Positions 8,219-22,481 of a DNA stretch of 64,000 nt are shown piece after piece. Origin of the DNA: Candidatus Woesebacteria bacterium GW2011_GWB1_39_12 (GTDB lineage Bacteria; Patescibacteriota; Microgenomatia; UBA8517); contig LBWB01000012.1 of the NCBI GenBank assembly GCA_000993405.1, forward strand, positions 37,777 to 101,776. The letters run 5' to 3'. Below the pieces are notes generated by a model, which did no database searches, had not been told where the DNA came from, and saw only the letters and a list, made by a program, of their open reading frames with translations. Position numbers and translations under genes: made by a program. How positions within the stretch are numbered: position 1 is the stretch's first letter; the number at the start of each line of letters is the position of its first letter.

Positions 8219-8731
8219 ATGAAAAAACTGTCCAAAAGAACTTCAAGAAATATTATTTATGCTTTCATCGACAGCCAAAACCTCAATTTGGGAGTTCAAT
8301 CGCAAGGCTGGAGGCTGGATTTTGCACGCTTCCGAATTTATCTCAAAGACAAATATCATGTACAGAAAGCCTATCTTTTTATCGGTTATATACCAAAAAA
8401 TAGAAAACTTTATGATTTTCTTGATAAAGCAGGTTATAAGTTAATTTATAAACCTGTTTTGGAATCGAAAAGGCCTAAAGTTAAAACAAAGGGAAACGTT
8501 GATGCAGAACTTGTGCTCCATACCATGATTGAGTTCCCTAGATACGACAAAGCTATTATTGTAAGTGGTGATGGAGATTTCTACTGTATTATTGAATATT
8601 TGGATAAGAAAAGAAAACTTGAGAAGGTTATTGTTCCAAACAAAGCAAGTTTTTCAAGTTTACTAAGAAAGTTTAGAAAATATGTTGTATACGTTAGGGA
8701 TTTTAGGGCGAAGGTTGAAAGAAAGAAGTAA
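8219..8731 (+). CDS. NYN/LabA-like (PIN-fold) domain protein
   Basis: FIDSQNL ... NVDAELVLH ... IIVSGDGDF pattern typical of NYN/LabA (DUF88). Confidence 0.65.
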   Translation: MKKLSKRTSRNIIYAFIDSQNLNLGVQSQGWRLDFARFRIYLKDKYHVQKAYLFIGYIPKNRKLYDFLDKAGYKLIYKPVLESKRPKVKTKGNVDAELVLHTMIEFPRYDKAIIVSGDGDFYCIIEYLDKKRKLEKVIVPNKASFSSLLRKFRKYVVYVRDFRAKVERKK

Positions 8732-8885
8732 AAAAAAGAGAGGGATTATCCTTCGGACGAACCTTAGGCGTGCCCTCTCATCGTGATTAAATATATTATA
8801 CCAACCCCCGCAACTCGAGTCAAAGGCAAAACTAGGCTCACCCGCATTCGCTTTATGCCCGAAAATCGGATAAAATACGGACAGA

Positions 8886-11627
8886 ATGAGCAAAGAGGAA
8901 ACCAAACAAAAAATCCAAGAGTTGGTCGATAAATATGAGAAAGCAAAACTTTCTCGTTCAATTTCTAAATATACAGAGGAAGAAACAAAAAAAGACTTTA
9001 TACTTCCATTATTTCAAGCTTTAGGCTGGAATATTTTTGATAAAAACGAGGTTAGTGCAGAAGAATCACAGTCGGGAGGACGAGTTGATTTTGGTTTTTA
9101 TTTTAAGGGCAGACTCAAATTTTATCTTGAGGCAAAATCTTTACGAACTGATCTTAATAGGGAAGAATTTGCTAATCAAGCCATCAAATATTCTTGGAAT
9201 AAGGGCGCAACCTGGGCAATTTTGACAGATTTCGAGGGCTTGAAAGTTTTCAACGCTCAAATTATCGATAGAAAACTTACGGACAAGCTTTATTTTGAAA
9301 TACTTTCAAACCAATATGTTGAAAGGTTTGATCAGCTTTGGTTACTCTCCAAAGGTGCTTTCGAAGAAAATTTAATTGATAAAGAAGCTGAAAAAGTCGG
9401 TAAAAAAATTCAAAGAGTTTCGGTAGGAATATCACTATATAAAGATTTAACCTTGTGCAGAGATATCTTAACCGACAAGCTTGGAAAAATGAATCCTGGG
9501 ATAGATAGTGAATTGTTAGACGAGGGTGTTCAGAAATTACTGGATAGACTTATATTTATAAGAGTTGCAGAAGATCGGGGAATAGAGCCACCAACATTAA
9601 TTCCTCTTATTCGTGCGTGGAAAAATAGCAAAAACCCAAACGAAATTCCTCTTTATAAGTCGATGGTTTCAAAGTTTAGAGAGCTAGATGAAACTTACAA
9701 TTCGAACCTTTTCACTAAACACCCATTGGAAGATTGGGAAGATTGGAGCAATATAACTGAACAAGTTGTAAAAATTCTCCAAGGAAAGCCGGGCTATTAC
9801 GAATATGACTTCAAAGCTATTCCCTCGGATGTTTTAGGAAGCGTTTATGAAAATTATCTAGGCTATAGACTTTCAAAATCCAAAAAAGGACTCACTCTCA
9901 GTAAAGACGCTAAAAAGAGAAAAGAACACGGAATCTACTATACTCCAGATTATATTGTTGACTATATTGTTAAAAATGCACTTAAACCGGTTCTGGACAA
10001 ATGTAATTCAGTAGCAGAGTTAAAGAAGATTAAGGTTTTAGATCCCGCTTGTGGTTCAGGCTCCTTTTTAATTAAAGCGATGGATTTAATTTACAAAAAA
10101 TATGAAGAATTTGGCAATCGAGGAGGGACATATACTAAATTAGCCATCCTGTTAGACAATATTTATGGTGTTGACCTTGATCCACAGGCAGTTGAAATAG
10201 CCAGGTTAAATCTTTTACTTAATATTCTTGAAGAAAAAATAAAACTTCCTTTACTTGATAAAAACATTAAAAACGGCAATTCTCTTATTTCAGGAACAGA
10301 TGAAGAGCTTAAAAGATATTTTGGAGAAAACTTCAGAGATAAAAAACCATTCAATTGGCAAGAAGAATTTCCGGAAGTATTCAAACAAGGTGGTTTTGAC
10401 GTAATTATAGGAAATCCGCCATATATAAGTTTTTATTCGAGGGAATCCCACTTAGACCAATATATACAAGATGTACAGTTTCTTACAGACAAATATGAGT
10501 TAACTCAAATATATTCTGACAGAAGACTAAATACCGTTATGTTTTTTATTGAAAGGTCTCTGCAGATACTGAGAGCTCATGGGAACTTGGGTTTTGTGAT
10601 AGATGCAAACTTTTTGGAAAAACCTTTCAGGGCACTTAGGTCATGGTTAGTGGAAAAGAAGTTCGTAGTTAAAATTTCACAAAAGTTTTCTGCTTTTAAC
10701 GAAGTGGCTAGCGATCAAAATCTTCTGTTTGTTAAAAAATCTAAGTCAGAGCTTCCTTTTGAAGTATTAAGTTTTGATGGAAATGTCGGAAACTTTACGA
10801 ACTCCAAAATCAAAGTTCTTTCTGAAAAGTTCAAAGAGGATGTGGTGAATCTAAATCCAAAGAAAATTAATCTTTATAAAGTTGGTATATTACCACTTAA
10901 GGAATTGGCGCTGGTTTCGACGGGTGTACAGATCGGAATAGGTGGAACAAGGGCATATGACGGACAAAACATTGAAAAATTGTTTTATTCTGAATCTAAA
11001 AAATCGGAGAAACATTTTGAAAATATATCGCTGAATCCAAAAGATTTCTTTCAATATTGTCCACCCAAAACAAAGAATTACCTGAATTTGGATGAAAAAT
11101 TAGCGTCTAAAATAAATAGAAACGTAAAAAAATGTAACATTGCAGTTACGAAAGCAAAACCATTTATAAACAAGGAAAAAATTTTTGTCAGACAATCTTC
11201 TTCATCGATTGTTGCAACTGTAGGTCAGCCAAGGCAAATTTCAGAGTATTCTGCCTTTATGATAAGACCTTTCCAGAAGCACGATACTCATTTCATTCTG
11301 GCAATTCTAAATTCTAAACCAATGACCTTATATGCTAAAGAGGAAAATGTAATTTTAATGGGTAATAAAAAACAACCACAAATCAGGCTAAAGGGTCTGA
11401 AAAAACTACCTTTTCCAGTTGTTGGTGTTAACCCAAAGAGGTCTTTGGCTAGTAAAGCACGGGTTATGTTACATCTCAACAATAAGTTGTTAAAAGTACA
11501 AGAAAACTCAGAAAAATGGAATTATATAAAATCAGAAATCGAGAAAACTGATAATAAAATTGATGAAGAAGTTTACAAACTCTACAACCTCACGGCTAAA
11601 GAAATTGAAATTGTGGAGAAAAGTTGA
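8886..11627 (+). CDS. MmeI-family Type IIL/IIG restriction-modification enzyme (fused PD-ExK nuclease, gamma-class N6-adenine methyltransferase and target-recognition domain)
   Basis: 913 aa. The N-terminal MmeI-like nuclease domain has VDFGFY...YLEAKS (D...EXK). It carries SAM motif I (VLDPACGSGSFL) and motif IV (IIGNPPYI), plus a long C-terminal TRD-like region. Confidence 0.7.
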   Translation: MSKEETKQKIQELVDKYEKAKLSRSISKYTEEETKKDFILPLFQALGWNIFDKNEVSAEESQSGGRVDFGFYFKGRLKFYLEAKSLRTDLNREEFANQAIKYSWNKGATWAILTDFEGLKVFNAQIIDRKLTDKLYFEILSNQYVERFDQLWLLSKGAFEENLIDKEAEKVGKKIQRVSVGISLYKDLTLCRDILTDKLGKMNPGIDSELLDEGVQKLLDRLIFIRVAEDRGIEPPTLIPLIRAWKNSKNPNEIPLYKSMVSKFRELDETYNSNLFTKHPLEDWEDWSNITEQVVKILQGKPGYYEYDFKAIPSDVLGSVYENYLGYRLSKSKKGLTLSKDAKKRKEHGIYYTPDYIVDYIVKNALKPVLDKCNSVAELKKIKVLDPACGSGSFLIKAMDLIYKKYEEFGNRGGTYTKLAILLDNIYGVDLDPQAVEIARLNLLLNILEEKIKLPLLDKNIKNGNSLISGTDEELKRYFGENFRDKKPFNWQEEFPEVFKQGGFDVIIGNPPYISFYSRESHLDQYIQDVQFLTDKYELTQIYSDRRLNTVMFFIERSLQILRAHGNLGFVIDANFLEKPFRALRSWLVEKKFVVKISQKFSAFNEVASDQNLLFVKKSKSELPFEVLSFDGNVGNFTNSKIKVLSEKFKEDVVNLNPKKINLYKVGILPLKELALVSTGVQIGIGGTRAYDGQNIEKLFYSESKKSEKHFENISLNPKDFFQYCPPKTKNYLNLDEKLASKINRNVKKCNIAVTKAKPFINKEKIFVRQSSSSIVATVGQPRQISEYSAFMIRPFQKHDTHFILAILNSKPMTLYAKEENVILMGNKKQPQIRLKGLKKLPFPVVGVNPKRSLASKARVMLHLNNKLLKVQENSEKWNYIKSEIEKTDNKIDEEVYKLYNLTAKEIEIVEKS

Positions 11628-11687: not shown

Positions 11688-12194
11688 ATGATAAAGGATT
11701 TAAACTCGTTACTTTCGCTACAGGAGGTTTCTGAACTATTAGGAGTCCACCCTGAAACTTTAAGACGTTGGGACAGAGAGGACAAGTTATCAGCAATTAA
11801 AGTCAACGAGAGAGGAGATAGGAGATATCGATATGGAGATGTTATGAGAATTCTAGGAAGTTACGGAACAATAGAATACAAGGGATTTAAAATAACTCAC
11901 TACAGTCCAGGTTTTGAAATGTTTCCAGATAGGTTTGGTTCCATAGCTAAATTTGTAGTAAGTAATAATTTGGTAGTTGCAGGTTTTGCTTTTGCAGTTG
12001 CGGGTCTGAAACTTTTTGCAGAGCCAGATGTTAAATCGCAAGATCTAGAAAATCTAGCATTGTCAAAAATCAAGTATTTTATAAACCAAAAGCTAATAAA
12101 GAATTTAAAGGAATATACTTTCGAGTTTGAATCTAGGGAACAAGGATTTATACAAATTAAAAATCCAGACTGGTGGACTAAAGGAAGTTTATGA
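11688..12194 (+). CDS. HTH (excisionase/MerR-like HTH_17) DNA-binding protein with a C-terminal hydrophobic segment
   Basis: LSLQEVSELLGVHPETLRRWDRE helix-turn-helix. The ATG at 11688 is preferred over the TTG at 11649 used by the ORF track. Its stop overlaps the next gene's start (ATGA). Confidence 0.55.
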   Translation: MIKDLNSLLSLQEVSELLGVHPETLRRWDREDKLSAIKVNERGDRRYRYGDVMRILGSYGTIEYKGFKITHYSPGFEMFPDRFGSIAKFVVSNNLVVAGFAFAVAGLKLFAEPDVKSQDLENLALSKIKYFINQKLIKNLKEYTFEFESREQGFIQIKNPDWWTKGSL

Positions 12195-13114
12195 GCGAGA
12201 AGATATATGTTAGTAAAATTACGCAAGACACAAAGAACAGCGTTAAAGATTGTCTTTTGAGTTTATTTTACCGAAAGAACGATTTGATTCAATTTTTAAA
12301 AAGTTGCGGTTCCACATCTTCTGATTTGATTAATATAGGAGAATTAATGACAAAGTCCCGAATTGTTGACACTTATTTTGGCAACCTCGAACAGAGGTTA
12401 GACAATGGAACAGCTCAGTATCATAGTTTGATGAGACAAATTATTGATTGGGACGATTTTGACTCTTATTGGTTTCGGAATGGCAGTCTAGATGCAGGTT
12501 ATGCAAAAAGTAGGATTGGGCAATTGAACAAGCTTTTAGGTAAGAAAACAAAAATAGAAGAGGAGAGACTGAAATTACGCGAGAAAGAACAAGAATACGA
12601 AAAAATAAAAGCTAGGTCTCAGCTAATAACTGATTTAAGAGATAAATTTTATCGAATGTGTCAGGATAGCGATCAGACGCAAAAACGAGGTTACGAGTTA
12701 GAAGATTTACTAAATAAAATGTTTAGTTTTTTCGGCTTTGACGTTTTCAAACCATTTAAACTAAAAGGGGAGCAAATAGATGGTTCCTTTAAACACGATG
12801 GAGATAACTATATATTTGAGTCGAAATGGCAGGATAAAGAAAGTGCAGTCAATGATCTTTATGCTTTTGCTTACAAAATAGAGAGCAATTCTTTGTATCC
12901 TAGGGGTGTGTTTTTTTCTATAAATGGATACTCTGAAGATGCATTAAATAGAATAACTTACAACAAAAAGGCTCAACTAATTTTATTTGATGCCGTCGAT
13001 ATAATCGCCGTTCTCGAGGAACGTATATCATTAGTTAGTCTTCTGGAAGAAAAAATTAGATTTGCACAAACACATTCAAGAATCTATGTTAATGCAAATG
13101 ATATTCTTAAATGA
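12191..13114 (+). CDS. Mrr-like restriction endonuclease-fold (PD-(D/E)xK) protein with an N-terminal domain of unknown function
   Basis: The C-terminal region FGFDVF...GEQIDGSF...IFESKWQDK...SINGYSEDA matches the Mrr_cat D...(D/E)xK pattern. It is translationally coupled to the HTH gene. Confidence 0.55.
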   Translation: MSEKIYVSKITQDTKNSVKDCLLSLFYRKNDLIQFLKSCGSTSSDLINIGELMTKSRIVDTYFGNLEQRLDNGTAQYHSLMRQIIDWDDFDSYWFRNGSLDAGYAKSRIGQLNKLLGKKTKIEEERLKLREKEQEYEKIKARSQLITDLRDKFYRMCQDSDQTQKRGYELEDLLNKMFSFFGFDVFKPFKLKGEQIDGSFKHDGDNYIFESKWQDKESAVNDLYAFAYKIESNSLYPRGVFFSINGYSEDALNRITYNKKAQLILFDAVDIIAVLEERISLVSLLEEKIRFAQTHSRIYVNANDILK

Positions 13115-13230: not shown

Positions 13231-13244
13231 CAAATTTGACCCCA
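13231..13244 (+). repeat. cassette-boundary motif copy a (CAAATTTGACCCCA, short form)
   Basis: First member of an 18-copy motif family. It lies 117 nt after the Mrr-like gene stop. Confidence 0.8.
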
Positions 13245-13322
13245 CTCTTTTGGTGTCTCGTATTTAGTATTTAGGAATAATTTGCGTTGACAGTGAGTCT
13301 TTCATATAGTTTAATAGGGATT

Positions 13323-13610
13323 ATGGACGACGTTAAGAAAATGTTTAGAGTAATTGTTAACGGGCAGAGTGTAATAAAGCAAGAGTTGCTTTCGGAAATT
13401 AAGAAAGTAGACAAGAGCTTGAGCGGCAGAATTGATAGTTTAACTACAGAAATGAAAGACGGGTTTAAGAAAGTAAACAAACGTTTAGATTTAATAGGGA
13501 AATCAGTCGCCTTTCTTGAGGATGATACACCGACTAGAGAAGAACATGATAAATTAGAAAAACGCGTTTCTAAAGTAGAAAGAAAACTTCAAATTCAAGC
13601 ACCTGTTTAA
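13323..13610 (+). CDS. small coiled-coil protein, paralog copy 1 (96 aa from MDDVKKMF)
   Basis: ~90% identical to the ORF at 20532..20819, and the upstream 90 nt are also conserved. Confidence 0.55.
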   Translation: MDDVKKMFRVIVNGQSVIKQELLSEIKKVDKSLSGRIDSLTTEMKDGFKKVNKRLDLIGKSVAFLEDDTPTREEHDKLEKRVSKVERKLQIQAPV

Positions 13611-13616
13611 ATATTT

Positions 13617-13634
13617 TCTCCAAACTTGACCCCA
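13617..13634 (+). repeat. motif copy b (TCTCCAAACTTGACCCCA, short form)
   Basis: Starts 7 nt after the preceding stop codon. Confidence 0.8.
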
Positions 13635-13665
13635 TCTTTTTCTATTTTAAAATATATAATTAGTT

Positions 13666-14088
13666 ATGGTTAAGATTAGGAATTATAAAATTAGTGATTA
13701 CACGAAAGTCAAAGAAATTTTAGAAGAAGCCAGTCTTTTTGATGGAGTTTGGGATTCGGAAGAAAATTTATCAGGTAAGATTAAAGCCAATCCTGAATCA
13801 ATACTTGTTGCGGTAAAAGATGGTGTAATTGTTGGAAATGTATGTATCATTAATTACGGGTCAAAACTTCAATATCTTTTCCGTTTGGCTGTAGATAAAG
13901 ATTATCGTAATCAGGGAATAGCAACACAGTTAATTAATTCTGCAGTTGATATTGCAAGAAAAAATGGGGTAAATGAAGTGGGTTTATATGCTGATGCAGA
14001 CAATTCTAAATTGTTAGCCTATTACAGCAAAAGAGGCTTTAAAAAATCTAAGAGCAGATATTATTATATGTGGCAGGATATTAAATAA
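13666..14088 (+). CDS. GNAT family N-acetyltransferase
   Basis: Acetyl-CoA-binding motif RNQGIATQLI (R/Q-x-x-G-x-A/G) and a ~140-aa GNAT fold length. Confidence 0.75.
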   Translation: MVKIRNYKISDYTKVKEILEEASLFDGVWDSEENLSGKIKANPESILVAVKDGVIVGNVCIINYGSKLQYLFRLAVDKDYRNQGIATQLINSAVDIARKNGVNEVGLYADADNSKLLAYYSKRGFKKSKSRYYYMWQDIK

Positions 14089-14092
14089 GAAT

Positions 14093-14160
14093 CTCCAAAT
14101 CCTTCGATAAATTATAACAGTGAGTGTAGTCGAACTGCTCAGGACTATAGTTTGACCCCA
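14093..14160 (+). repeat. motif copy c, long form (CTCCAAAT-CCTTCGATAAATTATAACAGTGAGTGTAGTCGAACTGCTCAGGACTATAG-TTTGACCCCA)
   Basis: 68 nt, starting 5 nt after the GNAT stop. The palindrome halves are separated by a ~48-nt insert. Confidence 0.8.
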
Positions 14161-14236
14161 CGGTTATTTTTTTGTATCAAACTGCGGTTTCTTGACTTTG
14201 TTACTTTTGAACCTCAATATTAGATTAAGGTTAAAT

Positions 14237-14509
14237 ATGATAATAGATGATCCTAACTTTGATATTCCACTTTGGTTTTTTTATCTAATAGCTTTTATAA
14301 AAATAGCATATCTACTTTTTATAGTTTGGGTTATTTTTAACTTATTTTTGATGATTTATTGGTTAATTAGGTCGATAAAAGATAAAAGTGTTATAAAGAT
14401 AGTCAAGAAAAGGGTTAAGTATGTTTTTTTTGGAATGGCTGCTCTTTTAATTCTCTCTTTGGTAGCTTACGTTTTAGGGTTAGTCCCCAATATTAGAGAT
14501 ATTGTGTAG
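14237..14509 (+). CDS. small membrane protein (2-3 TM helices), hypothetical
   Basis: Hydrophobic 90-105-aa ORF. The start is ambiguous (ATG 14192 or 14237). Confidence 0.4.
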   Translation: MIIDDPNFDIPLWFFYLIAFIKIAYLLFIVWVIFNLFLMIYWLIRSIKDKSVIKIVKKRVKYVFFGMAALLILSLVAYVLGLVPNIRDIV

Positions 14510-14576
14510 TTCGTAGCACTTGTATATTAAAGAAAATTAAACAACATAGGGTTGGACTGAAATGTCTCAGGAAAGG

Positions 14577-14590
14577 CAAATTTGACCCCA
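14577..14590 (+). repeat. motif copy d (CAAATTTGACCCCA)
   Basis: Short form. It begins a ~300-bp segment that is duplicated at 18126..18440. Confidence 0.8.
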
Positions 14591-14673
14591 CAATTTTTTA
14601 GAGCGTTTTTTTCTACAGACTCCGCAACCCCTGTTTTGTTGACAAGCCCTGAAATAAGTTTTAAAGTTTTACC

Positions 14674-14871
14674 ATGAACGACGAAAGGGTAAGAGAGCAC
14701 CGCATCCCTCAAAACACAATTGTTGATAGGGGAGGGTATATCGGCCCAGGAGGCAGAATCAACGCCGAGCTTGTGCGGCCACCTGTTGCAGCATCGCCCA
14801 CAACAGAGATTCCACCCGCAGTTTCCCCGCAATCAACTGGAACCGAAAACCCACCACCTACAACGTATTAG
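14674..14871 (+). CDS. small Pro-rich protein, paralog copy 1 (65 aa, MNDERVREHRIP...)
   Basis: Paralog at 18221..18445 differs by an in-frame 27-nt indel and a few substitutions. The frame is conserved on the + strand, and TTGACA...TTAAAG lies upstream. Confidence 0.5.
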   Translation: MNDERVREHRIPQNTIVDRGGYIGPGGRINAELVRPPVAASPTTEIPPAVSPQSTGTENPPPTTY

Positions 14872-14883
14872 TAGTAATATTTT

Positions 14884-14951
14884 CTTCAAATCCTTCGGCA
14901 TGTTATAACAGTGAGCGTTGTCGAACTGCTCAGGACTATAGTTTGACCCCA
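14884..14951 (+). repeat. motif copy e, long form (CTTCAAAT-CCTTCGGCATGTTATAACAGTGAGCGTTGTCGAACTGCTCAGGACTATAG-TTTGACCCCA)
   Basis: 68 nt, starting 13 nt after the stop of the previous ORF. Confidence 0.8.
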
Positions 14952-14974
14952 AATTATTGATAAGAAAGTAGTGC

Positions 14975-15418
14975 ATGTTCTATACTGGTAGTGTGAAGTA
15001 TTTTAAAAACTTCTTTTTATTTTTTTTGCTAACTTTTTTAATTGCTCCGTTTCCGGAATGTATAGATGGATCCTATAGGGGGGTTAATAAATTTAAATGT
15101 TATACCGGTTTATCATTTTTACCTCCTCTAATAAATATAACTTCGATTATGAGCTTTTCATTTCTTTTTTGGTATAAATCTGATCGGGTCGTTTATAACT
15201 ATTGGCTTTGGCAAAATTTCCAGTCTTTTGTCACTTTTATTATTCTTCCCGTTTTAATGTCAGTTTTTTATACAAAATTTGTTGAAAAGTTTGATGCTAA
15301 AAAGAGAGTAATGTATATGATTTTTATTTTGATATTATTCCTGACGGTAAATACTTTAGTCTTTTATTTATTGAAGTACTATAAAATATTGCCGGCTTCG
15401 CTTTTAATTGCCGATTAG
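14975..15418 (+). CDS. hypothetical membrane protein (4 TM)
   Basis: 147 aa and hydrophobic, with no recognisable motifs. Confidence 0.45.
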   Translation: MFYTGSVKYFKNFFLFFLLTFLIAPFPECIDGSYRGVNKFKCYTGLSFLPPLINITSIMSFSFLFWYKSDRVVYNYWLWQNFQSFVTFIILPVLMSVFYTKFVEKFDAKKRVMYMIFILILFLTVNTLVFYLLKYYKILPASLLIAD

Positions 15419-15488
15419 TTTTAAGATAATTATTAATTAATAAATTGCGCCTTAGAAGTGAAATAAGTTTACACCTTGATATATCCTT

Positions 15489-15625
15489 CCAATTTGACCC
15501 CATAATCCATTCGGCTTCGCTCAGGACTATAGTCCATTCGACAAGTTATAACAGTGAGCGTTGTCGAACTGCTCAGGACATAGTCCTTCGGTTTTACTCA
15601 GAATCATAATTCTTCGATTTTTGTT
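15489..15625 (+). repeat. motif copy f, composite (short core CCAATTTGACCCCA plus ATAATCCATTCGGCTTCGCTCAGGAC, plus the GTTATAACAGTGAGCGTTGTCGAACTGCTCAGGAC insert segment at 15545..15579, plus a tail shared with 18471..18551)
   Basis: Sub-repeats are shared with copies g, h and j. Confidence 0.75.
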
Positions 15626-15644
15626 TGGGTTTGAGATATAATTA

Positions 15645-16328
15645 TTGCAAATGTATAAACTATCTCCTTCCGACTTTAAGTATTTGTATGAGGACTGTAA
15701 GCATTGCTATTACCAAAAAGTTCGGGGGGTAATTAAAGAGCTCCCCTCGATTGGTATGCCGGGGGTATTTACGAAGATGAATACTCTTTTGCAAAACACA
15801 ATTATCGGCATGGATTTACGGGAAATTAATTCCAAACTTCCCGCAGGTAAAATCGAGGTTAAAGAAGGTTTTTTGAAATCCAAAACAATTCCTCCAACCA
15901 ACGATTGCTTTATAGGAGGAAGATTTGATATTGCCTCACGCCTTGACGACGGAACTTATTCAGTCATAGATTTTAAAATTACTGATCCTACAGAAGACAA
16001 AATCCAAAAGTTCTTTCCGCAATTGCATGCTTACAAATTTGCCCTGGAAAATCCGGCGTTTGGTGAGGCGAAAAAGGTGAGCAAAATGGGAGTTATCGCA
16101 ATTAATCCTGAAGAGATATCTTTTCCTGGCGAGAAAGTAGTCTTTACGGCAAAGCCCCTATTGTTTGAGATCGAGGAAGACATGGATAGGTTTTTTGCAT
16201 TTATTTCTGAAGTATCTAAATTGGTGAATGGACCTGAACCGCCGGAAAACTCTGACAATTGCAAATGGTGTTATTATCGACTTTGTACGACAAAGGTTAA
16301 AGATAACCAAGAAGACATTCCTTTTTAA
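15645..16328 (+). CDS. Cas4-like / RecB-family PD-(D/E)xK nuclease with an Fe-S Cys cluster (standalone, no CRISPR locus)
   Basis: N-terminal SPSDFKYLYEDCKHCYY (Cas4-like YxxC motif), core GGRFDI...SVIDFKI (D...DxK), and C-terminal CKWCYYRLC (CxxCx4C). Confidence 0.6.
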   Translation: MQMYKLSPSDFKYLYEDCKHCYYQKVRGVIKELPSIGMPGVFTKMNTLLQNTIIGMDLREINSKLPAGKIEVKEGFLKSKTIPPTNDCFIGGRFDIASRLDDGTYSVIDFKITDPTEDKIQKFFPQLHAYKFALENPAFGEAKKVSKMGVIAINPEEISFPGEKVVFTAKPLLFEIEEDMDRFFAFISEVSKLVNGPEPPENSDNCKWCYYRLCTTKVKDNQEDIPF

Positions 16329-16337
16329 TAACTCTTT

Positions 16338-16393
16338 AAATTTGATCTCATAATCCATTCGGCTTCGCTCAGGACTTCGCAAATTTGACTACA
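16338..16393 (+). repeat. motif copy g, degenerate (TAAATTTGATCTCATAATCCATTCGGCTTCGCTCAGGAC ... GCAAATTTGACTACA)
   Basis: Starts 10 nt after the Cas4-like stop and shares a 27-nt block with copy f. Confidence 0.7.
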
Positions 16394-16423
16394 GAGTTAT
16401 TCGAAATTATACTAGCCCATATT

Positions 16424-17356
16424 ATGAGTGAGAGAGGAAAAGATAAAAAAATTGTAAATGCCAGAAGTACAATCGCGCATCTTGGAAGAAAAGAGCATCT
16501 TACATCCAAAGAAGAAGATAGATTAGATAAAGCTAAAAAAATTACAAGACGACAATTTTTTAAACGGGCCGGAGTTTTAACCGGTGGTGCAGCTCTAACC
16601 GTAATTGGCGGTGGTGCAGCTTATAAAATTGTAGAAAATTTGACAAAGAGTGAAAGTGATGAAGAGGTTGTTACCGGATATGAGAAGGCATTAAATTCTG
16701 TTGTCGAAGGCGATTCAGAGGGAGAAAAATTACTTGATTTTTACAGAGACAGGAAGCGGGACGCCCATATAGAGGGCGATGTTATTTATGCTGATGAAGA
16801 AGGGGACTTAGATAGTAACTTCTGGGTGGTGGTGGATAGAGGTGGAGAATTTAAATCAAATAGAGTTACGGGAATTTCAGAATATAGCCAAGATAATAAT
16901 TTATTGAGAGTTAGATCCTTTGAATCAACTGATGACTTCAAGGGAACCTTGCTCGCACATGAACTGAAACACGCTTATGACGATATTATGCAGATAGAAG
17001 GTCCGGATGAGAATTCATTTTACCGTTCTGAAGCAGAGGCATATGATTTTGAATTTCGATTATTAGATAATGTTTCGGGGAAGCGTTTTATAGGTGTACT
17101 TCAGGAACAGTCACGGTCTATTGAACCGGGAAAGTTTAGGGGTAGATTGTCAGATGAAAATTTTATTTCCTTGAATGATTTATTTCTTGACGCTGTAAGC
17201 AAAGAAGAATTAAATCATAGAGTAGTAGTGTATACAATCGCACTAAATTTTGCCGCCATCGGATTAAGATCTGATATCGCCGATGTTGCACAACAAAAAG
17301 CGGAATATATTCGTGCGATTTATTCTCAAGATATCCCAATATTACCCCTTGATTAA
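16424..17356 (+). CDS. Tat-signal secreted HExxH metallopeptidase-like protein
   Basis: Twin-arginine motif TRRQFFKRAG followed by a hydrophobic h-region, and HELKH (HExxH). The ATG at 16424 is preferred over the TTG at 16385. Confidence 0.5.
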   Translation: MSERGKDKKIVNARSTIAHLGRKEHLTSKEEDRLDKAKKITRRQFFKRAGVLTGGAALTVIGGGAAYKIVENLTKSESDEEVVTGYEKALNSVVEGDSEGEKLLDFYRDRKRDAHIEGDVIYADEEGDLDSNFWVVVDRGGEFKSNRVTGISEYSQDNNLLRVRSFESTDDFKGTLLAHELKHAYDDIMQIEGPDENSFYRSEAEAYDFEFRLLDNVSGKRFIGVLQEQSRSIEPGKFRGRLSDENFISLNDLFLDAVSKEELNHRVVVYTIALNFAAIGLRSDIADVAQQKAEYIRAIYSQDIPILPLD

Positions 17357-17448
17357 CAATTTAATGCCATTTTGAAAGGAACTTGACTTAATGTGGCATT
17401 CTTATGTCACCTTCAAAGTATGATACAAGTAAGTAAATCAGGATTTTT

Positions 17449-17506
17449 CTCCAAATTCGACACTTAGACGTGACTAAGTGCAAGCCCATAATCCATTCGA
17501 CAAGCT
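17449..17506 (+). repeat. motif copy h, degenerate (CTCCAAATTCGACA ... CCCATAATCCATTCGACAAGCT)
   Basis: Lies in the convergent gap between the metallopeptidase gene and the minus-strand HD gene. Confidence 0.6.
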
Positions 17507-17517
17507 CCGAAATATTT

Positions 17518-18075
17518 TTAAATTTTCTTTGCTCTTTTCAAATCTCTTTTCTCAAGTTCCTTAAATATCTTGCTGCCGTTTTTGGATTTAAAAACAGGTT
17601 TATAATTTTCAAAAAAAGTATCCAAAACTTTTGTATCTTGTGTTTCTTCTTCAAATACTTCTCCCTGAAGTAAGGTTTCAAGCTTATCGGCTTCCCTCGC
17701 AATTTGGGATTCTTTAGTCTTCATAGAATTAAATTCATTGAATAAATTCATATATTCTTTTTTAATTACGGAAGGTAGTTCGTTGAAAACAGTCCTTTTT
17801 GCTTTCTCTTCCATTAATCGCTTCTTGTCATAATTACCGGAGGGGGGAATAACGTCATCCATTTTTGCCATCACCCAATCGTGAACTAATAATATCTTGA
17901 CTACTTTCTCTGAATTTACCTTCTCAAGTTTTGCCAAGTAGAGACCAATGCACATTGCCCCAAAAATGTGAGAGGCCAGATCATCCGAATCCATTCCTTT
18001 GTAAATCCAACCCTGGCGCTTGGTCTTCTTTAAAACTGAAATGATTGAGTACAAGTCCTTTATAGTTTTCATCAT
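17518..18075 (-). CDS. HD-domain phosphohydrolase (YfbR-like 5'-deoxynucleotidase family)
   Basis: H...HD...D pattern: SHIFGAMCIG, LLVHDWVMAKMDD, READKLETLLQ. Confidence 0.6.
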   Translation of the reverse strand: MMKTIKDLYSIISVLKKTKRQGWIYKGMDSDDLASHIFGAMCIGLYLAKLEKVNSEKVVKILLVHDWVMAKMDDVIPPSGNYDKKRLMEEKAKRTVFNELPSVIKKEYMNLFNEFNSMKTKESQIAREADKLETLLQGEVFEEETQDTKVLDTFFENYKPVFKSKNGSKIFKELEKRDLKRAKKI

Positions 18076-18120
18076 ACAATTTTAGCACTTGTAGATTCAT
18101 TTTTCGATAAACTCCAGTTT

Positions 18121-18139
18121 CTTCAAATTTGACCCTGCA
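18121..18139 (+). repeat. motif copy i (CTTCAAATTTGACCCTGCA)
   Basis: Start of the duplicated segment (copy 2). Confidence 0.8.
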
Positions 18140-18220
18140 ATTTTTTAGAGCGTTTTTTTCTACAAACTCCGCAACCCCTGTTTTGTTGACAAGCCCTGAA
18201 ATAAGTTTTAAAGTTTTACA

Positions 18221-18445
18221 ATGAACGACGAAAGGGTAGGAGAGCACCGCATTCCTAAAAACACAATTGTTGATAGGGGAGGGTATATCGGCGCAGGAGG
18301 CAGAATCAACGCCGAGCTTGTGCGACCACCCGAAGTCGTTCCTCCTATAAATCCGCCTGTCGCAGCATCGCTCACAACAGAGACGCCACCCGCTGTTCCC
18401 CCGCAACTATCTGGAAACGAAAACCCACCACTCACAACGTATTAG
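18221..18445 (+). CDS. small Pro-rich protein, paralog copy 2 (74 aa)
   Basis: See 14674..14871. A 9-aa insertion (EVVPPINPP) preserves the frame. Confidence 0.5.
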   Translation: MNDERVGEHRIPKNTIVDRGGYIGAGGRINAELVRPPEVVPPINPPVAASLTTETPPAVPPQLSGNENPPLTTY

Positions 18446-18457
18446 TAGTAATATTTT

Positions 18458-18551
18458 CTTCAAATCCTTCGGCAAGTTATAACAGTGAGCGTTGTCGAAC
18501 TGCTCAGGACTATAGTCCTTCGGTTTTACTCAGGATCACGATTCTTCGACT
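18458..18551 (+). repeat. motif copy j, long form variant (CTTCAAAT-CCTTCGGCAAGTTATAACAGTGAGCGTTGTCGAACTGCTCAGGACTATAG-TCCTTCGG...), with a tail shared with copy f
   Basis: Starts 13 nt after the stop. It is ~95% identical to 15545..15625 and lacks the terminal TTTGACCCCA. Confidence 0.75.
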
Positions 18552-18583
18552 TTTATTTATTGAAGCAGTATAATCGCCATAGA

Positions 18584-18976
18584 ATGTTGGAATCAAAATC
18601 GTCCATAAATCAGGGACTGGCAGAAATATATAAAGAGGCATGTCAAAACCTTGGTAGGTATTTAGACGGTTTGAATCATGGTGTTGCAAGGTCGTATAAA
18701 GGACGTATGAGGCAAGAAACGGTACGACAAGAGGTTGAAGAGTACGGGCAGGAATCTCTTTACCATACTTTCGAAACACCGTACGTTCAGGGATATGGTT
18801 TGGTTGTCTCGACTTTAAATATTTTAGAAAGGTTAAATGTTCATACAAATACCGATCTTTTAGGATTAGATATAGAGAACGCCGAAAAGCAAAACAGAGA
18901 CTTTGGCGATAAAAAAGTAGAATTGGTTGGCCTTTTCAAAGAAATAGTCAGAGCACAAAAAGACTTAGAAGAGTAG
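18584..18976 (+). CDS. hypothetical protein (130 aa from MLESKSS)
   Basis: ATG at 18584 with TATAAT 9 nt upstream. The ORF-track GTG start at 18485 lies inside the repeat and is rejected. Confidence 0.45.
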   Translation: MLESKSSINQGLAEIYKEACQNLGRYLDGLNHGVARSYKGRMRQETVRQEVEEYGQESLYHTFETPYVQGYGLVVSTLNILERLNVHTNTDLLGLDIENAEKQNRDFGDKKVELVGLFKEIVRAQKDLEE

Positions 18977-18982
18977 TATTAT

Positions 18983-18999
18983 CTCCAAATTTGACCCCA
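18983..18999 (+). repeat. motif copy k (CTCCAAATTTGACCCCA)
   Basis: Starts 7 nt after the stop. Confidence 0.85.
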
Positions 19000-19065
19000 C
19001 ATTATTAGTATTAAATATTGAGTATATCGTAGTTATGGAATGTTGTGGGTGATATACTTTAGCCT

Positions 19066-19632
19066 ATGAAGAGGGCAATAATTGTTCACTGTTGGGAAGG
19101 GTATCCTAAGTATTGTTGGTATCCTCAAACTAAAAAGGAGTTAGAAGAGGAAGGTTTTGAAGTAGAAGTTCCAGAGATGCCTGAAACTGCAAATCCTAAA
19201 CTTTCTGGGTGGCTTTCCAAGCTTAAAGATATAGTTCAAACTCCTGATAAAAATCTCTTTTTAGTCGGGCACAGTTTAGGCTGTATAACCATAATGAGAT
19301 ATTTGGAAAGCTTAAAAGAGGGCAAGAAAGTGGGAGGAGTAGTTTTTGTGGCGGGATTTACGGATGATTTGGGTTATAAGGAACTCACAAACTTTTTCAC
19401 TGAAACGATTGATTTTGAAAAGATTAGAGAAAAATCTGATAGTTTTTATGCAATAAATTCCGATGACGACCCATACGTTTCTCTTAAATACGCTGATATT
19501 TTGAAAGAAAAACTCGGAGCGATATCGATAATAAAGCATAATATGAAGCATTTCTCAGGACCAATAGACAATGAAGACAGCTGTCTTTCTATTCCGGAAG
19601 TTACAAAGTCCATCATAAAGATGGCGAGGTGA
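19066..19632 (+). CDS. RBBP9/YdeN-like alpha/beta serine hydrolase
   Basis: ~190 aa with IIVHCWEG at the N-terminus and the nucleophile elbow GHSLG. Confidence 0.7.
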   Translation: MKRAIIVHCWEGYPKYCWYPQTKKELEEEGFEVEVPEMPETANPKLSGWLSKLKDIVQTPDKNLFLVGHSLGCITIMRYLESLKEGKKVGGVVFVAGFTDDLGYKELTNFFTETIDFEKIREKSDSFYAINSDDDPYVSLKYADILKEKLGAISIIKHNMKHFSGPIDNEDSCLSIPEVTKSIIKMAR

Positions 19633-19634
19633 TT

Positions 19635-19651
19635 CTTCAAATTTGACCCCA
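19635..19651 (+). repeat. motif copy l (CTTCAAATTTGACCCCA)
   Basis: Starts 3 nt after the stop. Confidence 0.85.
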
Positions 19652-19696
19652 TATTGCTTCACCAGAATAAGGCGATTATAGCTCAACTGGATGAGT

Positions 19697-19930
19697 TTAT
19701 ACTATTGGTCGATGGGGTAACCTGGCACGAGTGGCTCTCGATACGGCATTGGGGTTAGTTGCATTACCAACTGCACCTATAACTTCATCTACACTGAAAG
19801 GTTCGGGAGTTAAGGCTTGAATTACATCTAACTTGGCTAGCTCTGCGGAATCTCTCGGGTCTTCCGGTTGAACGTGTTGGTATCTTTGGATTACTTCTCT
19901 TGTAAGAGGAGCTTCAATTCTTAAAGTCAT
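19697..19930 (-). CDS. hypothetical 77-aa protein (minus strand, locally higher GC)
   Basis: The ORF sits in a GC-richer patch. It is the only minus-strand ORF in this gap and has no motifs. Confidence 0.3.
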   Translation of the reverse strand: MTLRIEAPLTREVIQRYQHVQPEDPRDSAELAKLDVIQALTPEPFSVDEVIGAVGNATNPNAVSRATRARLPHRPIV

Positions 19931-19966
19931 TAGTTGTTCGTATTATAAGGATAGAATTAAGATTTT

Positions 19967-19981
19967 GCAAATTTGACCCCC
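19967..19981 (+). repeat. motif copy m (GCAAATTTGACCCCC)
   Basis: Short form. Confidence 0.8.
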
Positions 19982-20036
19982 GACCGTAGAAATTAAACGA
20001 TAGTTTCGTTTGAATATTCTATGTTAAGATTAACTA

Positions 20037-20402
20037 ATGAAACGCAGATTGCCGTATATTATTATTTTTATTTTATTTATAGCAATTTTAATTTTTCTGT
20101 ATTTTTTATTTAGTATGAATTATGTTCCTAAGAATAAGGAACTGAAATTTACGAATTCTCCACTTAATTATTGTTCGTCCAATTTTGATTGTTATATTTA
20201 CAGTTATGATTCATGCCAGTGTCCGACCAGTGTTGTTGTGAATAAGAAATATAAAGATTCCCCTGAGCTGTATAATAATTTTCCTATTACTCCCTCCGAA
20301 GAATGTCTTATTGCTTGTACTCCTGGAAGCTCTTTTCCCAAAAATGCTTATTGTGTTAATGGTAAGTGCGGTATTGAATACGAGAAATTGTTTGAAAAAT
20401 GA
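20037..20402 (+). CDS. small secreted Cys-rich protein (hypothetical)
   Basis: N-terminal signal/TM helix and 10 Cys in the mature part. Confidence 0.5.
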   Translation: MKRRLPYIIIFILFIAILIFLYFLFSMNYVPKNKELKFTNSPLNYCSSNFDCYIYSYDSCQCPTSVVVNKKYKDSPELYNNFPITPSEECLIACTPGSSFPKNAYCVNGKCGIEYEKLFEK

Positions 20403-20444
20403 CTTAAGATTTGTAACAATTGAGATTATTCATCCGTGAAATAT

Positions 20445-20461
20445 CCTTCAAATTTGACCCT
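20445..20461 (+). repeat. motif copy n (CCTTCAAATTTGACCCT)
   Basis: Begins the duplicated coiled-coil cassette (20445..20822, similar to 13231..13613). Confidence 0.8.
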
Positions 20462-20531
20462 ACTTTTGGTATCTAGTATTTAGGAATAATTTGCGTTGAC
20501 GGTGAGTCTTTCATATAGTTTAATAGGGATT

Positions 20532-20819: not shown

Positions 20820-20826
20820 ATATGCT

Positions 20827-20869: not shown

Positions 20870-20928
20870 AAACCCCCAGCCGTTTCTTTCACGCGCCCTA
20901 TTATGAGAGTTGTTGAAACTATTGGTGA

Positions 20929-22477: not shown

Positions 22478-22481
22478 CTTT

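What the first reader, a model, noticed from the sequence alone, without database searches (positions are those of the whole stretch)
8219..11627. MmeI-family single-polypeptide RM enzyme preceded by a NYN/LabA-like PIN-fold gene
A 913-aa ORF carries the full MmeI-type architecture: an N-terminal D...EAK nuclease, motif I, NPPY and a TRD. This is a self-contained Type IIL restriction-modification system that modifies one strand. It is not typical of reduced genomes. The adjacent NYN-domain RNase-fold gene may be functionally linked, since NYN and PIN domains recur in defence islands. Together with the HTH/Mrr pair, this forms a compact defence island at the left edge of the cassette array.
Basis: partly seen in the sequence, partly recalled or inferred. 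Interest (0 to 1): 0.55.

Follow-up and report, generated by a model that had tools for sequence, protein, structure and literature searches.

The report
Type IIG restriction enzyme beside NYN–sRNA
A tiny-genome (Woesebacteria/CPR) bacterium carries an intact single-protein restriction-modification enzyme of a very common kind, not the MmeI family proper. The neighbouring NYN nuclease gene is not its partner; it travels with a conserved ~57-nt small RNA gene that has no match in Rfam.

Summary
Window 8886-11627 (+) encodes an intact 913-aa fusion: a PD-(D/E)XK nuclease (D68, E82-A-K84), a helical spacer, a gamma-class N6-adenine methyltransferase (DPACGSGSF, NPPY) and a TaqI-like target-recognition domain (TRD). 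Window 8219-8731 (+) encodes a 170-aa NYN protein.

The enzyme is a Type IIG restriction-modification (RM) enzyme, but it is not an MmeI-family member. Four of the five MmeI Pfam domains are missing, and a family profile scores MmeI at only 2e-6, against 1e-46 for CamA. It belongs to the HSDR_N + Eco57I + TaqI_C class. That class has thousands of members and is especially frequent in CPR bacteria and DPANN archaea, so it is typical of reduced genomes. The TRD is hypervariable: 17% identity to homologues against about 66% for the nuclease.

NYN is not linked to the enzyme. None of 80 homologous IIG loci holds this NYN subfamily, and none of six other NYN contexts holds an RM gene.

Unexpectedly, the NYN 3' flank holds a convergent small RNA gene (about 8731-8788, minus strand). 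It has a sigma-70-type promoter, a covarying hairpin and a U-tract terminator, is conserved across Patescibacteria, and has no Rfam match. The downstream 307-aa protein is a Mrr-like nuclease with defence contexts elsewhere. The RM enzyme itself is ordinary; the NYN-sRNA pair is the more novel lead.

The parts
8219..8731 (+). NYN (LabA/DUF88-like) nuclease gene, 170 aa. Conserved Patescibacteria gene, not part of the RM system.
   Evidence: Pfam NYN 1.4e-14. Thousands of homologues at 65-77% identity, named Roizman-, Woese-, Parcubacteria. Neighbours differ in every other locus and none is an RM gene.
8731..8788 (-). Candidate small RNA gene convergent with NYN. It has a 5' single-stranded AUCACGAU, a 7-bp outer stem (8773-8779 / 8738-8744) enclosing a near-invariant 28-nt interior, and a U8 terminator tail (8730-8737) that overlaps the NYN stop codon.
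   Evidence: 88-96% nucleotide identity next to NYN genes that are only 65-77% identical as proteins. 23 distinct copies, 98.6% of cells paired, compensatory changes at 2 pairs, 0/500 shuffles reach the score. G-U pairs exist only on this strand. Fold -18.2 kcal/mol, z -2.5. No Rfam family.
8795..8823 (-). Sigma-70-type promoter of the small RNA: TTGACT, 17 nt, TGnTATAAT.
   Evidence: 11 of 12 consensus matches plus an extended -10. Both boxes are conserved in most of the aligned loci while the spacer between them is not.
8886..11627 (+). Type IIG restriction-modification enzyme gene, 913 aa.
8886..9395 (+). N-terminal PD-(D/E)XK nuclease domain (aa 1-170). D68 = 9087-9089, E82 = 9129-9131, K84 = 9135-9137.
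   Evidence: Pfam HSDR_N 5.1e-9. D68/E82/K84 invariant in 114 sequences. Model shows alpha-beta-beta-beta-alpha-beta secondary structure.
9396..9905 (+). Helical spacer (aa 171-340).
   Evidence: All-helical in the model. No Pfam family at E<=10. 65% mean identity to homologues.
9906..10745 (+). Gamma-class N6-adenine methyltransferase (aa 341-620). Motif I DPACGSGSF = 10041-10067, NPPY = 10413-10424.
   Evidence: Pfam Eco57I 1.4e-32 and N6_Mtase 6.6e-20. Invariant motifs.
10746..11624 (+). TaqI_C-type target recognition domain (aa 621-845) plus a conserved C-terminal helical pair (aa 846-913).
   Evidence: TaqI_C 4.3e-9. CamA, M.BseCI and M.TaqI are the best structural and profile matches. 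The TRD is 17% identical to homologues against 66% for the N-terminus.
11688..12194 (+). MerR/HTH_17-type helix-turn-helix protein (168 aa from ATG 11688). Its C-terminal ~100 aa have no assignment. It overlaps the next gene by 4 nt.
   Evidence: Pfam MerR 9e-9, HTH_17 3e-7. Gene call in identical contigs.
12191..13114 (+). 307-aa Mrr-like PD-(D/E)XK nuclease with an unassigned helical N-terminal half.
   Evidence: No Pfam hit itself. Homologues at 51-54% identity carry PF04471 Mrr_cat. E171, D197, E210 invariant and K212 >=90% conserved. Model pLDDT 90.5; weak Foldseek hits to the FokI cleavage domain, AspBHI, EndoMS and BspD6I. Homologues sit inside a Type I RM operon and next to OLD/AAA_15 ATPases.

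Best explanation
Window 8886-11627 encodes a stand-alone, probably active Type IIG restriction-modification enzyme of the HSDR_N + Eco57I-methylase + TaqI_C-TRD class.

Inferred mechanism, from characterised relatives:
- The C-terminal TaqI-like TRD and the gamma-class methyltransferase read a short DNA site. They methylate one adenine (m6A) with AdoMet, which marks the host's own DNA.
- On unmethylated foreign DNA, the single N-terminal PD-(D/E)XK site (D68/E82/K84) is held at a fixed distance by the helical spacer and cuts to one side of the site. This probably needs two enzyme molecules.
- There is no companion methyltransferase, so self-protection must come from the enzyme's own methylation. 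That is most likely on one strand of an asymmetric site, as in MmeI, CamA and PglX.
- The hypervariable TRD means its specificity is probably unique to this lineage.

The gene sits in a low-GC variable stretch between housekeeping genes (FtsA/FtsZ to YkuD) and a repeat-bounded array of small genes. An HTH + Mrr-like nuclease pair follows it; that pair is a second, independent defence-type module.

The NYN gene upstream is not part of this. It is a conserved Patescibacteria gene paired tail-to-tail with a ~57-nt small RNA gene.
For: Shown:
- Intact ORF with all domains.
- Catalytic and AdoMet/NPPY residues invariant in 114 homologues.
- Confident model, pLDDT 87.6.
- Best structural matches are CamA, BrxX/PglX, M.BseCI, BpuSI, MmeI and DrdV.
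- Profile ranking: CamA 1.5e-46 > BseCI > PglX > M.TaqI > BsaXI > DrdV > Type I HsdM proteins and LlaBIII/LlaGI > MmeI 2.3e-6.
- TRD 17% identity against nuclease 67%.
- No recurrent neighbour in 80 loci, so the enzyme acts alone.
- No other methyltransferase or BREX gene among the window ORFs scanned, and no paralogue by tblastn.
- GC 0.33-0.35 at 8-14 kb against 0.45 at 2-4 kb.
- The locus is identical in at least 24 contigs from several metagenomes.

From the literature:
- Type IIG enzymes methylate one strand and cut 14-21 bp away, and Eco57I+TaqI_C architecture occurs in the characterised Cj0031 (PMC4889913).
- MmeI has one-strand protection, a two-site requirement and no second methyltransferase (PMC2582602).
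Against: - No biochemical or methylome data exist for this enzyme or any close relative. The nearest full-length homologue outside the strain is 55% identical.
- The recognition site, cut distance and strand(s) modified are unknown.
- No convincing sigma-70 promoter for the gene was seen in 8824-8885 (my reading; one search lists none), so its expression is unproven.
- The N-terminal nuclease domain has no significant sequence match to any solved nuclease.
- Some IIG-like proteins act only as methyltransferases in vivo.
Confidence: 0.8

Rival explanations
1. It is a true MmeI-family (Type IIL) enzyme: homologous to MmeI throughout, cutting about 20/18 nt away and protecting the host by one-strand methylation.
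For: Same domain order and similar size (913 against 919 aa). Pfam MmeI_Mtase passes its cut-off (51.7 bits). Foldseek aligns MmeI at 2.4e-19. No second methyltransferase lies nearby.
Against: MmeI_N, MmeI_hel, MmeI_TRD and MmeI_C are not detected even on isolated domains at E<=10. The MTase region scores far higher with Eco57I (113.6 bits) and N6_Mtase (72.1 bits). The family profile hits MmeI at 2.3e-6 (29 bits), below several Type I HsdM proteins and LlaBIII/LlaGI. Structural identity to MmeI is 13-14%. The TRD is TaqI_C.
Confidence: 0.08
2. It is the methyltransferase of a multi-gene system (BREX PglX, DISARM DrmMI, MADS mad2), not an autonomous restriction enzyme.
For: Its best NCBIfam hits are PglX models (4e-25). 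PADLOC also lists DrmMI, PglX and mad2, and the downstream HTH hits mad1 at 1e-9. BrxX/PglX are among the top structural matches.
Against: NCBIfam scores are 83-88 bits against cut-offs of 400-500 and cover only the MTase core. The IIG profile scores 325 bits from residue 3. PglX and DrmMI lack the invariant N-terminal D/E/K nuclease seen here. No PglZ, BrxC, BrxL or helicase genes occur among 37 window ORFs. There are no conserved neighbours in 80 loci.
Confidence: 0.03
3. NYN, the IIG enzyme, the HTH protein and the Mrr-like nuclease form one co-functioning defence operon, for example with NYN as an RNase effector coupled to restriction.
For: All four genes are co-oriented and close together. 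The block is invariant in at least 24 contigs of this population. NYN has a PADLOC profile.
Against: - An HMM of the NYN subfamily finds no member within +/-8 kb of 80 IIG homologues.
- Pfam NYN occurs in 0/71 upstream and 1/60 downstream neighbours, and that one is from a different subfamily.
- Six other NYN loci have unrelated neighbours and no RM gene.
- A minus-strand promoter plus terminator lies between NYN and the IIG gene.
- The 24 contigs are one strain, 99.9-100% identical.
- Homologues of the Mrr-like gene occur without the IIG enzyme.
Confidence: 0.05
4. It is a domesticated or orphan methyltransferase whose nuclease no longer cuts, serving epigenetic regulation as CamA does.
For: CamA, an orphan MTase, is the closest solved relative of the MTase-TRD half. 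No expression or cleavage data exist.
Against: The nuclease domain is the most conserved part of the protein (67%) and D68/E82/K84 are invariant across 114 homologues. That is not expected for a decaying domain.
Confidence: 0.07

Closest known systems
Eco57I/TaqI_C-type Type IIG RM enzymes, e.g. Campylobacter jejuni Cj0031 (PMC4889913); PADLOC REase_MTase_IIG profile PDLC03604
   Same: Single polypeptide carrying both nuclease and gamma-class m6A methyltransferase, with Pfam Eco57I and TaqI_C domains. The PADLOC IIG profile matches residues 3-621 at 1.8e-97.
   Different: The protein is shorter (913 against 1243 aa for Cj0031) and has no phase-variable tract. Its TRD is unrelated to any characterised one, reaching at most 48% identity to any database homologue. 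No characterised close relative was identified here.
MmeI (Type IIL; PDB 5HR4; PMC2582602)
   Same: Works alike in outline: N-terminal PD-ExK nuclease, helical spacer, gamma N6A MTase with NPPY, C-terminal TRD, about 915 aa, and no companion methyltransferase.
   Different: Homology is only distant: profile E 2.3e-6 and 13-14% structural identity. The nuclease is HSDR_N type rather than MmeI_N, and the TRD is TaqI_C rather than MmeI_TRD/MmeI_C.
CamA (C. difficile orphan m6A MTase), M.BseCI, M.TaqI
   Same: These are the closest solved relatives of the MTase + TRD half: profile E 1.5e-46, 2e-32 and 7e-19, and Foldseek 2e-24.
   Different: They have no nuclease domain or helical spacer and are methyltransferases only.
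BREX PglX/BrxX
   Same: MTase core and TaqI-like TRD are similar: 2e-29 by profile and Foldseek 5e-24 over about 930 columns.
   Different: PglX is about 1200 aa, lacks the PD-(D/E)XK catalytic triad and works only with other BREX proteins, none of which is present here.
LabA/DUF88-type NYN proteins (PF01936)
   Same: The 170-aa protein matches the NYN domain end to end and keeps the conserved Asp residues (and the sequence).
   Different: It has no OST-HTH or other fused domain. It belongs to a tight Patescibacteria subfamily (65-77% identity) that is nearly always followed by a convergent small RNA gene. I found no description of this pairing.
Mrr-type (Type IV-like) restriction endonuclease catalytic domain, PF04471
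   Same: The C-terminal half of the 307-aa protein carries the E...D...ExK signature, and its homologues score as Mrr_cat.
   Different: The protein itself is below Pfam detection. Its helical N-terminal half is unassigned, and modification dependence is untested.

Membership tests
Type IIG restriction-modification enzyme | Nuclease and methyltransferase in one polypeptide | tested here: met
   HSDR_N (5.1e-9) plus Eco57I/N6_Mtase in one 913-aa ORF. PADLOC IIG profile 1.8e-97.
Type IIG restriction-modification enzyme | PD-(D/E)XK catalytic residues present and conserved | tested here: met
   D68, E82, K84 are invariant in 114 homologues.
Type IIG restriction-modification enzyme | Gamma-class N6A MTase motifs (motif I before motif IV NPPY, TRD C-terminal) | tested here: met
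   DPACGSGSF at 386-394, NPPY at 510-513, TaqI_C at 746-842.
Type IIG restriction-modification enzyme | Site-specific cleavage at a fixed distance, stimulated by AdoMet | not testable with these tools
   Needs purified protein.
MmeI family (Type IIL) | Sequence homology to MmeI across all domains (Pfam MmeI_N, MmeI_hel, MmeI_Mtase, MmeI_TRD, MmeI_C) | tested here: not met
   Only MmeI_Mtase hits (51.7 bits), and Eco57I outscores it at 113.6 bits. The other four are absent at E<=10. Profile against the MmeI sequence gives 2.3e-6.
MmeI family (Type IIL) | No companion methyltransferase | tested here: met
   No other MTase domain in 37 window ORFs and no paralogue. The rest of the genome was not examined.
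MmeI family (Type IIL) | Only one DNA strand modified; cuts about 20/18 | not testable with these tools
   Needs methylome or biochemical data.
BREX PglX | Score above the NCBIfam cut-off, and neighbouring PglZ/BrxC/BrxL genes | tested here: not met
   83-88 bits against cut-offs of 400-500. No BREX domains in the window.
NYN domain nuclease (PF01936) | Domain match above the gathering score, with conserved Asp residues | tested here: met
   55.3 bits against a cut-off of 24.2. D18, D95, D117 and D119 are present in the sequence.
Defence-island partner of the RM enzyme (NYN) | Recurrent co-location with the RM gene family | tested here: not met
   0 of 80 IIG loci hold this NYN subfamily. 0 of 6 other NYN contexts hold an RM gene.
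Mrr-like nuclease (PF04471) for the 307-aa protein | Mrr_cat domain match with an E-D-ExK signature | tested here: inconclusive
   No direct Pfam hit. Homologues carry PF04471. Three signature residues (E171, D197, E210) are invariant and K212 is >=90% conserved. Foldseek hits to PD-(D/E)XK nucleases reach only E of about 0.01-0.1.
Structured small RNA gene (NYN-associated) | Own promoter, conserved structure with covariation, and a terminator | tested here: met
   Promoter boxes conserved in most aligned loci, with variable spacers. Two covarying pairs, 98.6% of cells paired, 0/500 shuffles reach the score. A U-tract is present in all copies. Transcription itself was not tested.

The most novel reading that the evidence does not exclude
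The NYN gene and the convergent ~57-nt RNA (window about 8731-8788, minus strand) form a previously undescribed, phylum-wide two-part module in Patescibacteria. In this reading, a LabA-type NYN ribonuclease has expression or activity tied to a dedicated small RNA. The RNA could be a 3'-overlapping antisense regulator, or a tRNA-minihelix-like partner or substrate: a 7-bp outer stem plus a GGUUCGUCC hairpin. The RNA would be a new RNA family and one of the few conserved small RNAs known in these uncultivated bacteria.
Probability: 0.45. Interest if true: 0.55.

Novelty: new member of a known kind. Interest (0 to 1): 0.3.

Why it matters
The RM enzyme matters little on its own. It adds one more specificity-unknown member to a huge Type IIG class, and it corrects the idea that such systems are unusual in reduced genomes. 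This class is in fact very frequent in CPR bacteria and DPANN archaea, which fits reports that these organisms rely on RM rather than CRISPR. The hypervariable TRD on a conserved nuclease-MTase chassis could be mined for new recognition specificities.

The more useful outcome is a by-product. The NYN gene, which looked like a defence accessory, is a highly conserved Patescibacteria gene paired with a conserved small RNA that has no Rfam match. That gives a concrete, testable handle on RNA metabolism or regulation in organisms for which almost no regulatory RNAs are known. It also explains why metagenome contigs tend to break at this spot.

Tried and rejected
- MmeI membership was rejected on Pfam domain content and profile ranking.
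- BREX, DISARM and MADS readings were rejected. The hits are sub-threshold and cover the MTase core only, and no partner genes are present.
- NYN-RM linkage was tested four ways, all negative apart from one downstream neighbour with a different NYN subfamily. These were tblastn of NYN against 80 IIG loci, a Pfam census of immediate neighbours, a subfamily HMM against all ORFs of those loci, and the gene neighbourhoods of six NYN homologues.
- HTH linkage to the IIG enzyme: one other locus (L004) has an HTH homologue just upstream of the IIG gene. That is too rare to count as a partnership.
- Phase variation: no long homopolymer or simple repeat lies in the gene.
- Rfam identity for the hairpin element: none at gathering threshold or at E<=5. 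Similarity to SRP RNA was considered by eye and rejected.
- Plus-strand (NYN 3'-UTR) reading of the element is disfavoured. Four G-U pairs would become A-C mismatches, the U-tract and promoter exist only on the minus strand, and 2 of 24 copies lack NYN.
- Trans targets of the RNA 5' region in the window: no enrichment of complementary sites.
- The motif CAAATTTGACCCC is absent upstream of NYN, the IIG gene and the HTH gene, so these genes are not cassettes of the array. I read it as a possible -35 element, but downstream -10 boxes are inconsistent.
- Sequence search of the N-terminal domain against the PDB gave only spurious hits.
- Literature searches for a described NYN-associated or CPR small RNA found nothing relevant.


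Full report
**1. What is there**

The window holds a 170-aa ORF at 8219-8731 (+) and a 913-aa ORF at 8886-11627 (+), separated by 154 nt.

The long protein carries these domains:
- Pfam HSDR_N at the N-terminus: 1.4e-6 in the whole protein and 5.1e-9 on residues 1-175 alone.
- Eco57I methylase (1.4e-32), N6_Mtase (6.6e-20) and a weaker MmeI_Mtase hit (8.9e-14).
- TaqI_C at residues 746-842 (3.5e-8).

The PADLOC profile REase_MTase_IIG (PDLC03604) matches residues 3-621 at 1.8e-97. L-E82-A-K84, VLDPACGSGSFL, and GNPPY. In an alignment of 114 homologues, D68, E82, K84, the motif I glycines and N510-P-P are invariant. An AlphaFold model built on that alignment is confident (mean pLDDT 87.6). It shows an alpha-beta-beta-beta-alpha-beta N-terminal domain, a long helical region, a Rossmann-type MTase, a beta-rich TRD and two C-terminal helices.

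**2. Which family**

The enzyme works like MmeI, but the membership test fails.
- Four of the five MmeI-specific Pfam domains (MmeI_N, MmeI_hel, MmeI_TRD, MmeI_C) are absent. This holds even when the N-terminal, helical and C-terminal parts are scanned alone at E<=10.
- A profile of the family against all PDB sequences ranks CamA 1.5e-46, M.BseCI 2e-32, PglX/BrxX about 2e-29, M.TaqI 7e-19, BsaXI 1e-14 and DrdV 2e-13. MmeI scores only 2.3e-6, below several Type I HsdM subunits and the Type ISP enzymes.
- Foldseek gives the same order: CamA 2e-24, BrxX 5e-24, BseCI 2e-20, BpuSI 3e-20, MmeI 2e-19 at 13-14% identity, DrdV 2e-17.

The protein belongs to the Eco57I-methylase/TaqI_C-TRD class of Type IIG enzymes. 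The characterised C. jejuni enzyme Cj0031 has that Pfam architecture (PMC4889913). Here the module is fused to an HsdR-N-type PD-(D/E)XK nuclease.

That condition was best hits being nuclease-less PglX with BREX genes nearby. The PglX NCBIfam hits score 83-88 bits against cut-offs of 400-500 and cover only the MTase core. The nuclease triad is invariant. Among 37 window ORFs scanned there is no PglZ, BrxC, BrxL, helicase or second DNA methyltransferase, and no paralogue by tblastn.

**3. How common, and in whom**

The protein search returned more than 7,800 homologues at E<=1e-10 before hitting its candidate cap. The named close ones are Woesebacteria, Levybacteria, Azambacteria and 'Patescibacteria group'.

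A scan of one genome per GTDB species found at least 576 loci. The best come from these groups:
- CPR bacteria: Saccharibacteria, Minisyncoccales, Staskawicz-, Magasanik-, Doudna-, Peri- and Portnoybacteria.
- DPANN archaea: Micrarchaeota, Pace- and Woesearchaeota.
- Many other phyla.

The window itself comes from a Candidatus Woesebacteria bacterium GW2011_GWB1_39_12-like genome. The 307-aa neighbour is 100% identical to protein UT24_C0012G0050 of that genome. So the enzyme is typical of reduced genomes. This agrees with the statement in PMC12455944 that CPR mostly lack CRISPR and rely on RM.

Identity of the query to its homologues, by domain:

| Domain | Mean identity |
|---|---|
| Nuclease | 67% |
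| Helical spacer | 65% |
| MTase | 56% |
| TRD | 17% (maximum 48%) |
| C-terminal helices | 49% |

This is a conserved chassis with a swapped or fast-evolving specificity domain, the usual pattern for diversifying RM specificity.

**4. Mechanism (inferred)**

The TRD and MTase should recognise a short site and methylate an adenine. The single nuclease site should cut at a fixed distance set by the spacer. With one catalytic site per chain, two molecules are probably needed, as shown for MmeI (PMC2582602).

No companion methyltransferase is nearby and no partner gene recurs next to homologues. The Pfam census of the nearest upstream (71) and downstream (60) ORFs in 80 loci found no family in more than two loci. 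Protection must therefore come from the enzyme's own methylation. Its closest relatives with known sites, CamA and PglX, act on one strand of asymmetric sites, so one-strand protection is plausible but untested. The recognition site and cut distance cannot be derived here.

**5. The NYN gene is not a partner of the enzyme**

From the RM side:
- tblastn of NYN against the 80 loci found nothing.
- No upstream neighbour carries a Pfam NYN domain, and only one downstream neighbour does.
- An HMM of the window's NYN subfamily finds no ORF in any of the 80 loci within +/-8 kb. That one downstream case is therefore a different NYN subfamily.

From the NYN side:
- The protein has thousands of homologues at 65-77% identity in Roizman-, Woese- and Parcubacteria. 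That is far more conserved than the RM enzyme.
- In six other contexts its neighbours are unrelated and never RM genes. They include giant Laminin_G proteins, NUDIX and thymidine kinase, glycosyltransferases, YchF and ribosomal protein S6, and small hypothetical ORFs.

The NYN-IIG adjacency is seen only in one population. At least 24 contigs carry it, and the six fetched are 99.9-100% identical to the window.

**6. What NYN does travel with**

The first 60-90 nt after the NYN stop codon are 88-96% identical at the nucleotide level in every other NYN locus fetched. Read on the minus strand, the region contains, in order:
- a TTGAC(A/T) box;
- a spacer of about 17 nt that is not conserved;
- TGnTAtAAT;
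- about 7 nt later, a conserved transcript: AUCACGAU, then GAGAGGG, then CAC(A/G)CCUAAGGUU(N)CGUCCGAAGG(U/A)UAAU, then CCCUCUC, then a U-tract.

Both promoter boxes are conserved in most of the aligned loci while the spacer varies.

A pattern scan of metagenome contigs returned 25 more copies. In 22 of the 24 with room, a NYN ORF ends at or inside the element in the same orientation. Two copies (L121, L123) lack NYN but keep the promoter.

In 23 distinct copies the outer 7-bp stem is paired in 98.8% of cells. Compensatory changes occur at two pairs (G-C/A-U/G-U and A-U/G-C). No shuffle out of 500 reaches the observed covariation. The four G-U pairs would be A-C mismatches on the plus strand, which fixes the strand. 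The inner helix never varies, so it is untested.

No Rfam family matches. A covariance model built from the copies finds exactly one copy in the window and none in the RM loci used as controls. It also finds one copy on an IMG/VR contig.

I conclude that window positions about 8731-8788 (-) hold a real small RNA gene convergent with NYN. Its terminator overlaps the NYN stop codon. In several loci the NYN ORF actually ends inside the hairpin. Its function is unknown. My best guess is a 3'-overlapping antisense regulator or an RNA partner or substrate of the NYN nuclease. This is inference only. The element also explains why contigs L099 and L103 end inside it, since a near-identical sequence shared between co-occurring species breaks assemblies.

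**7. The rest of the 'island'**

- **HTH gene.** It starts at ATG 11688 in gene calls on identical contigs. It is a MerR/HTH_17-type protein and overlaps the next gene by 4 nt.
- **307-aa protein.** It has no Pfam hit itself. Homologues at 51-54% identity carry Mrr_cat, and enterobacterial 'restriction endonuclease' proteins align to its C-terminal half. E171, D197 and E210 are invariant and K212 is at least 90% conserved. Its model (pLDDT 90.5) gives only weak Foldseek matches, but the top ones are PD-(D/E)XK nucleases: the FokI cleavage domain, AspBHI, EndoMS and BspD6I.
- **Contexts of its homologues.** One sits inside a Type I RM operon between hsdM and hsdS. Others sit next to an OLD-family nuclease in a prophage-like region, or next to an AAA_15/21 ATPase. 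This gene is genuinely defence-associated and independent of the IIG enzyme.
- **Setting.** GC is 0.33-0.35 across 8-14 kb, against 0.45 in the FtsA/FtsZ region.
- **Array.** It starts at 13231, just after the Mrr-like gene. Fourteen same-strand copies of CAAATTTGACCCC lie between 13231 and 23081 (16 matches in the window against 2.2 expected). None lies upstream of NYN, the IIG gene or the HTH gene.

'Compact defence island next to the array' is therefore fair for the IIG enzyme plus the HTH/Mrr-like pair, but not for NYN.

**8. Verdict**

The RM gene is a new member of a known and abundant kind. It is interesting mainly as one more untyped specificity. The NYN-small-RNA pairing found while testing that linkage is the more novel lead and deserves its own follow-up.

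Noticed in passing
window 8731-8823 (minus strand); also L081-L087, L099-L129: A conserved ~57-nt small RNA gene lies tail-to-tail with the NYN gene. It has a sigma-70-type promoter, a covarying 7-bp stem around a near-invariant 28-nt interior, and a U-tract. It abuts NYN in 22 of 24 metagenome copies with room, plus all 7 NYN contexts examined. It has no Rfam match.
   Followed up: yes
window 13231-23081: An array of small, mostly unannotated genes is punctuated by 14 same-strand copies of CAAATTTGACCCC (16 matches in the window against 2.2 expected). Longer repeats also occur: a 69-nt unit four times (14092, 14883, 15526, 18457) and a 207-nt pair (14577/18124, 96% identical). Gene content in the array differs slightly between otherwise identical contigs L088-L093. 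The motif is absent from all other loci fetched. No recombinase was seen next to it.
   Followed up: partly
window 13260-13610 and 20469-20819: A 107-aa ORF and its upstream region are duplicated inside the array: 92% nucleotide identity over the 300-nt repeat and 91% amino-acid identity over the ORF. No Pfam family matches.
   Followed up: no
L099 (ends at 6559), L103 (ends at 2156), L082-L084: Metagenome contigs repeatedly end inside or shortly after the NYN-associated RNA element. This fits an assembly break at a sequence that is nearly identical between co-occurring species.
   Followed up: partly
L094 4523-11366: A 65%-identical homologue of the 307-aa Mrr-like protein is inserted between hsdM and hsdS of a Type I RM operon, followed by DUF3800 and hsdR. 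Other homologues sit beside OLD-family or AAA_15/21 ATPase genes (L095-L098).
   Followed up: partly
window 23646-26611: Isoleucyl/valyl-type class I tRNA synthetase is split into two overlapping ORFs in different frames: 651 aa with the catalytic domain and 354 aa with the anticodon-binding domain. This could be a frameshift, a sequencing error or a genuine split gene.
   Followed up: no
L129 1404-1464 (IMG/VR UViG_3300035688_000028): One copy of the NYN-associated RNA (64.5 bits with model R1) lies on a contig classed as viral. No NYN ORF is present in the 1.9 kb retrieved.
   Followed up: partly
L004 2784-2975: In a Minisyncoccales genome, a homologue of the window's HTH protein (41% identity over 64 aa) sits immediately upstream of the IIG homologue. 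This is the only other HTH-IIG adjacency among 80 loci.
   Followed up: no
window 8824-8885: No convincing plus-strand promoter precedes the IIG start codon. The gene may be read through from NYN, across the antisense RNA gene, or may use a non-canonical promoter.
   Followed up: no
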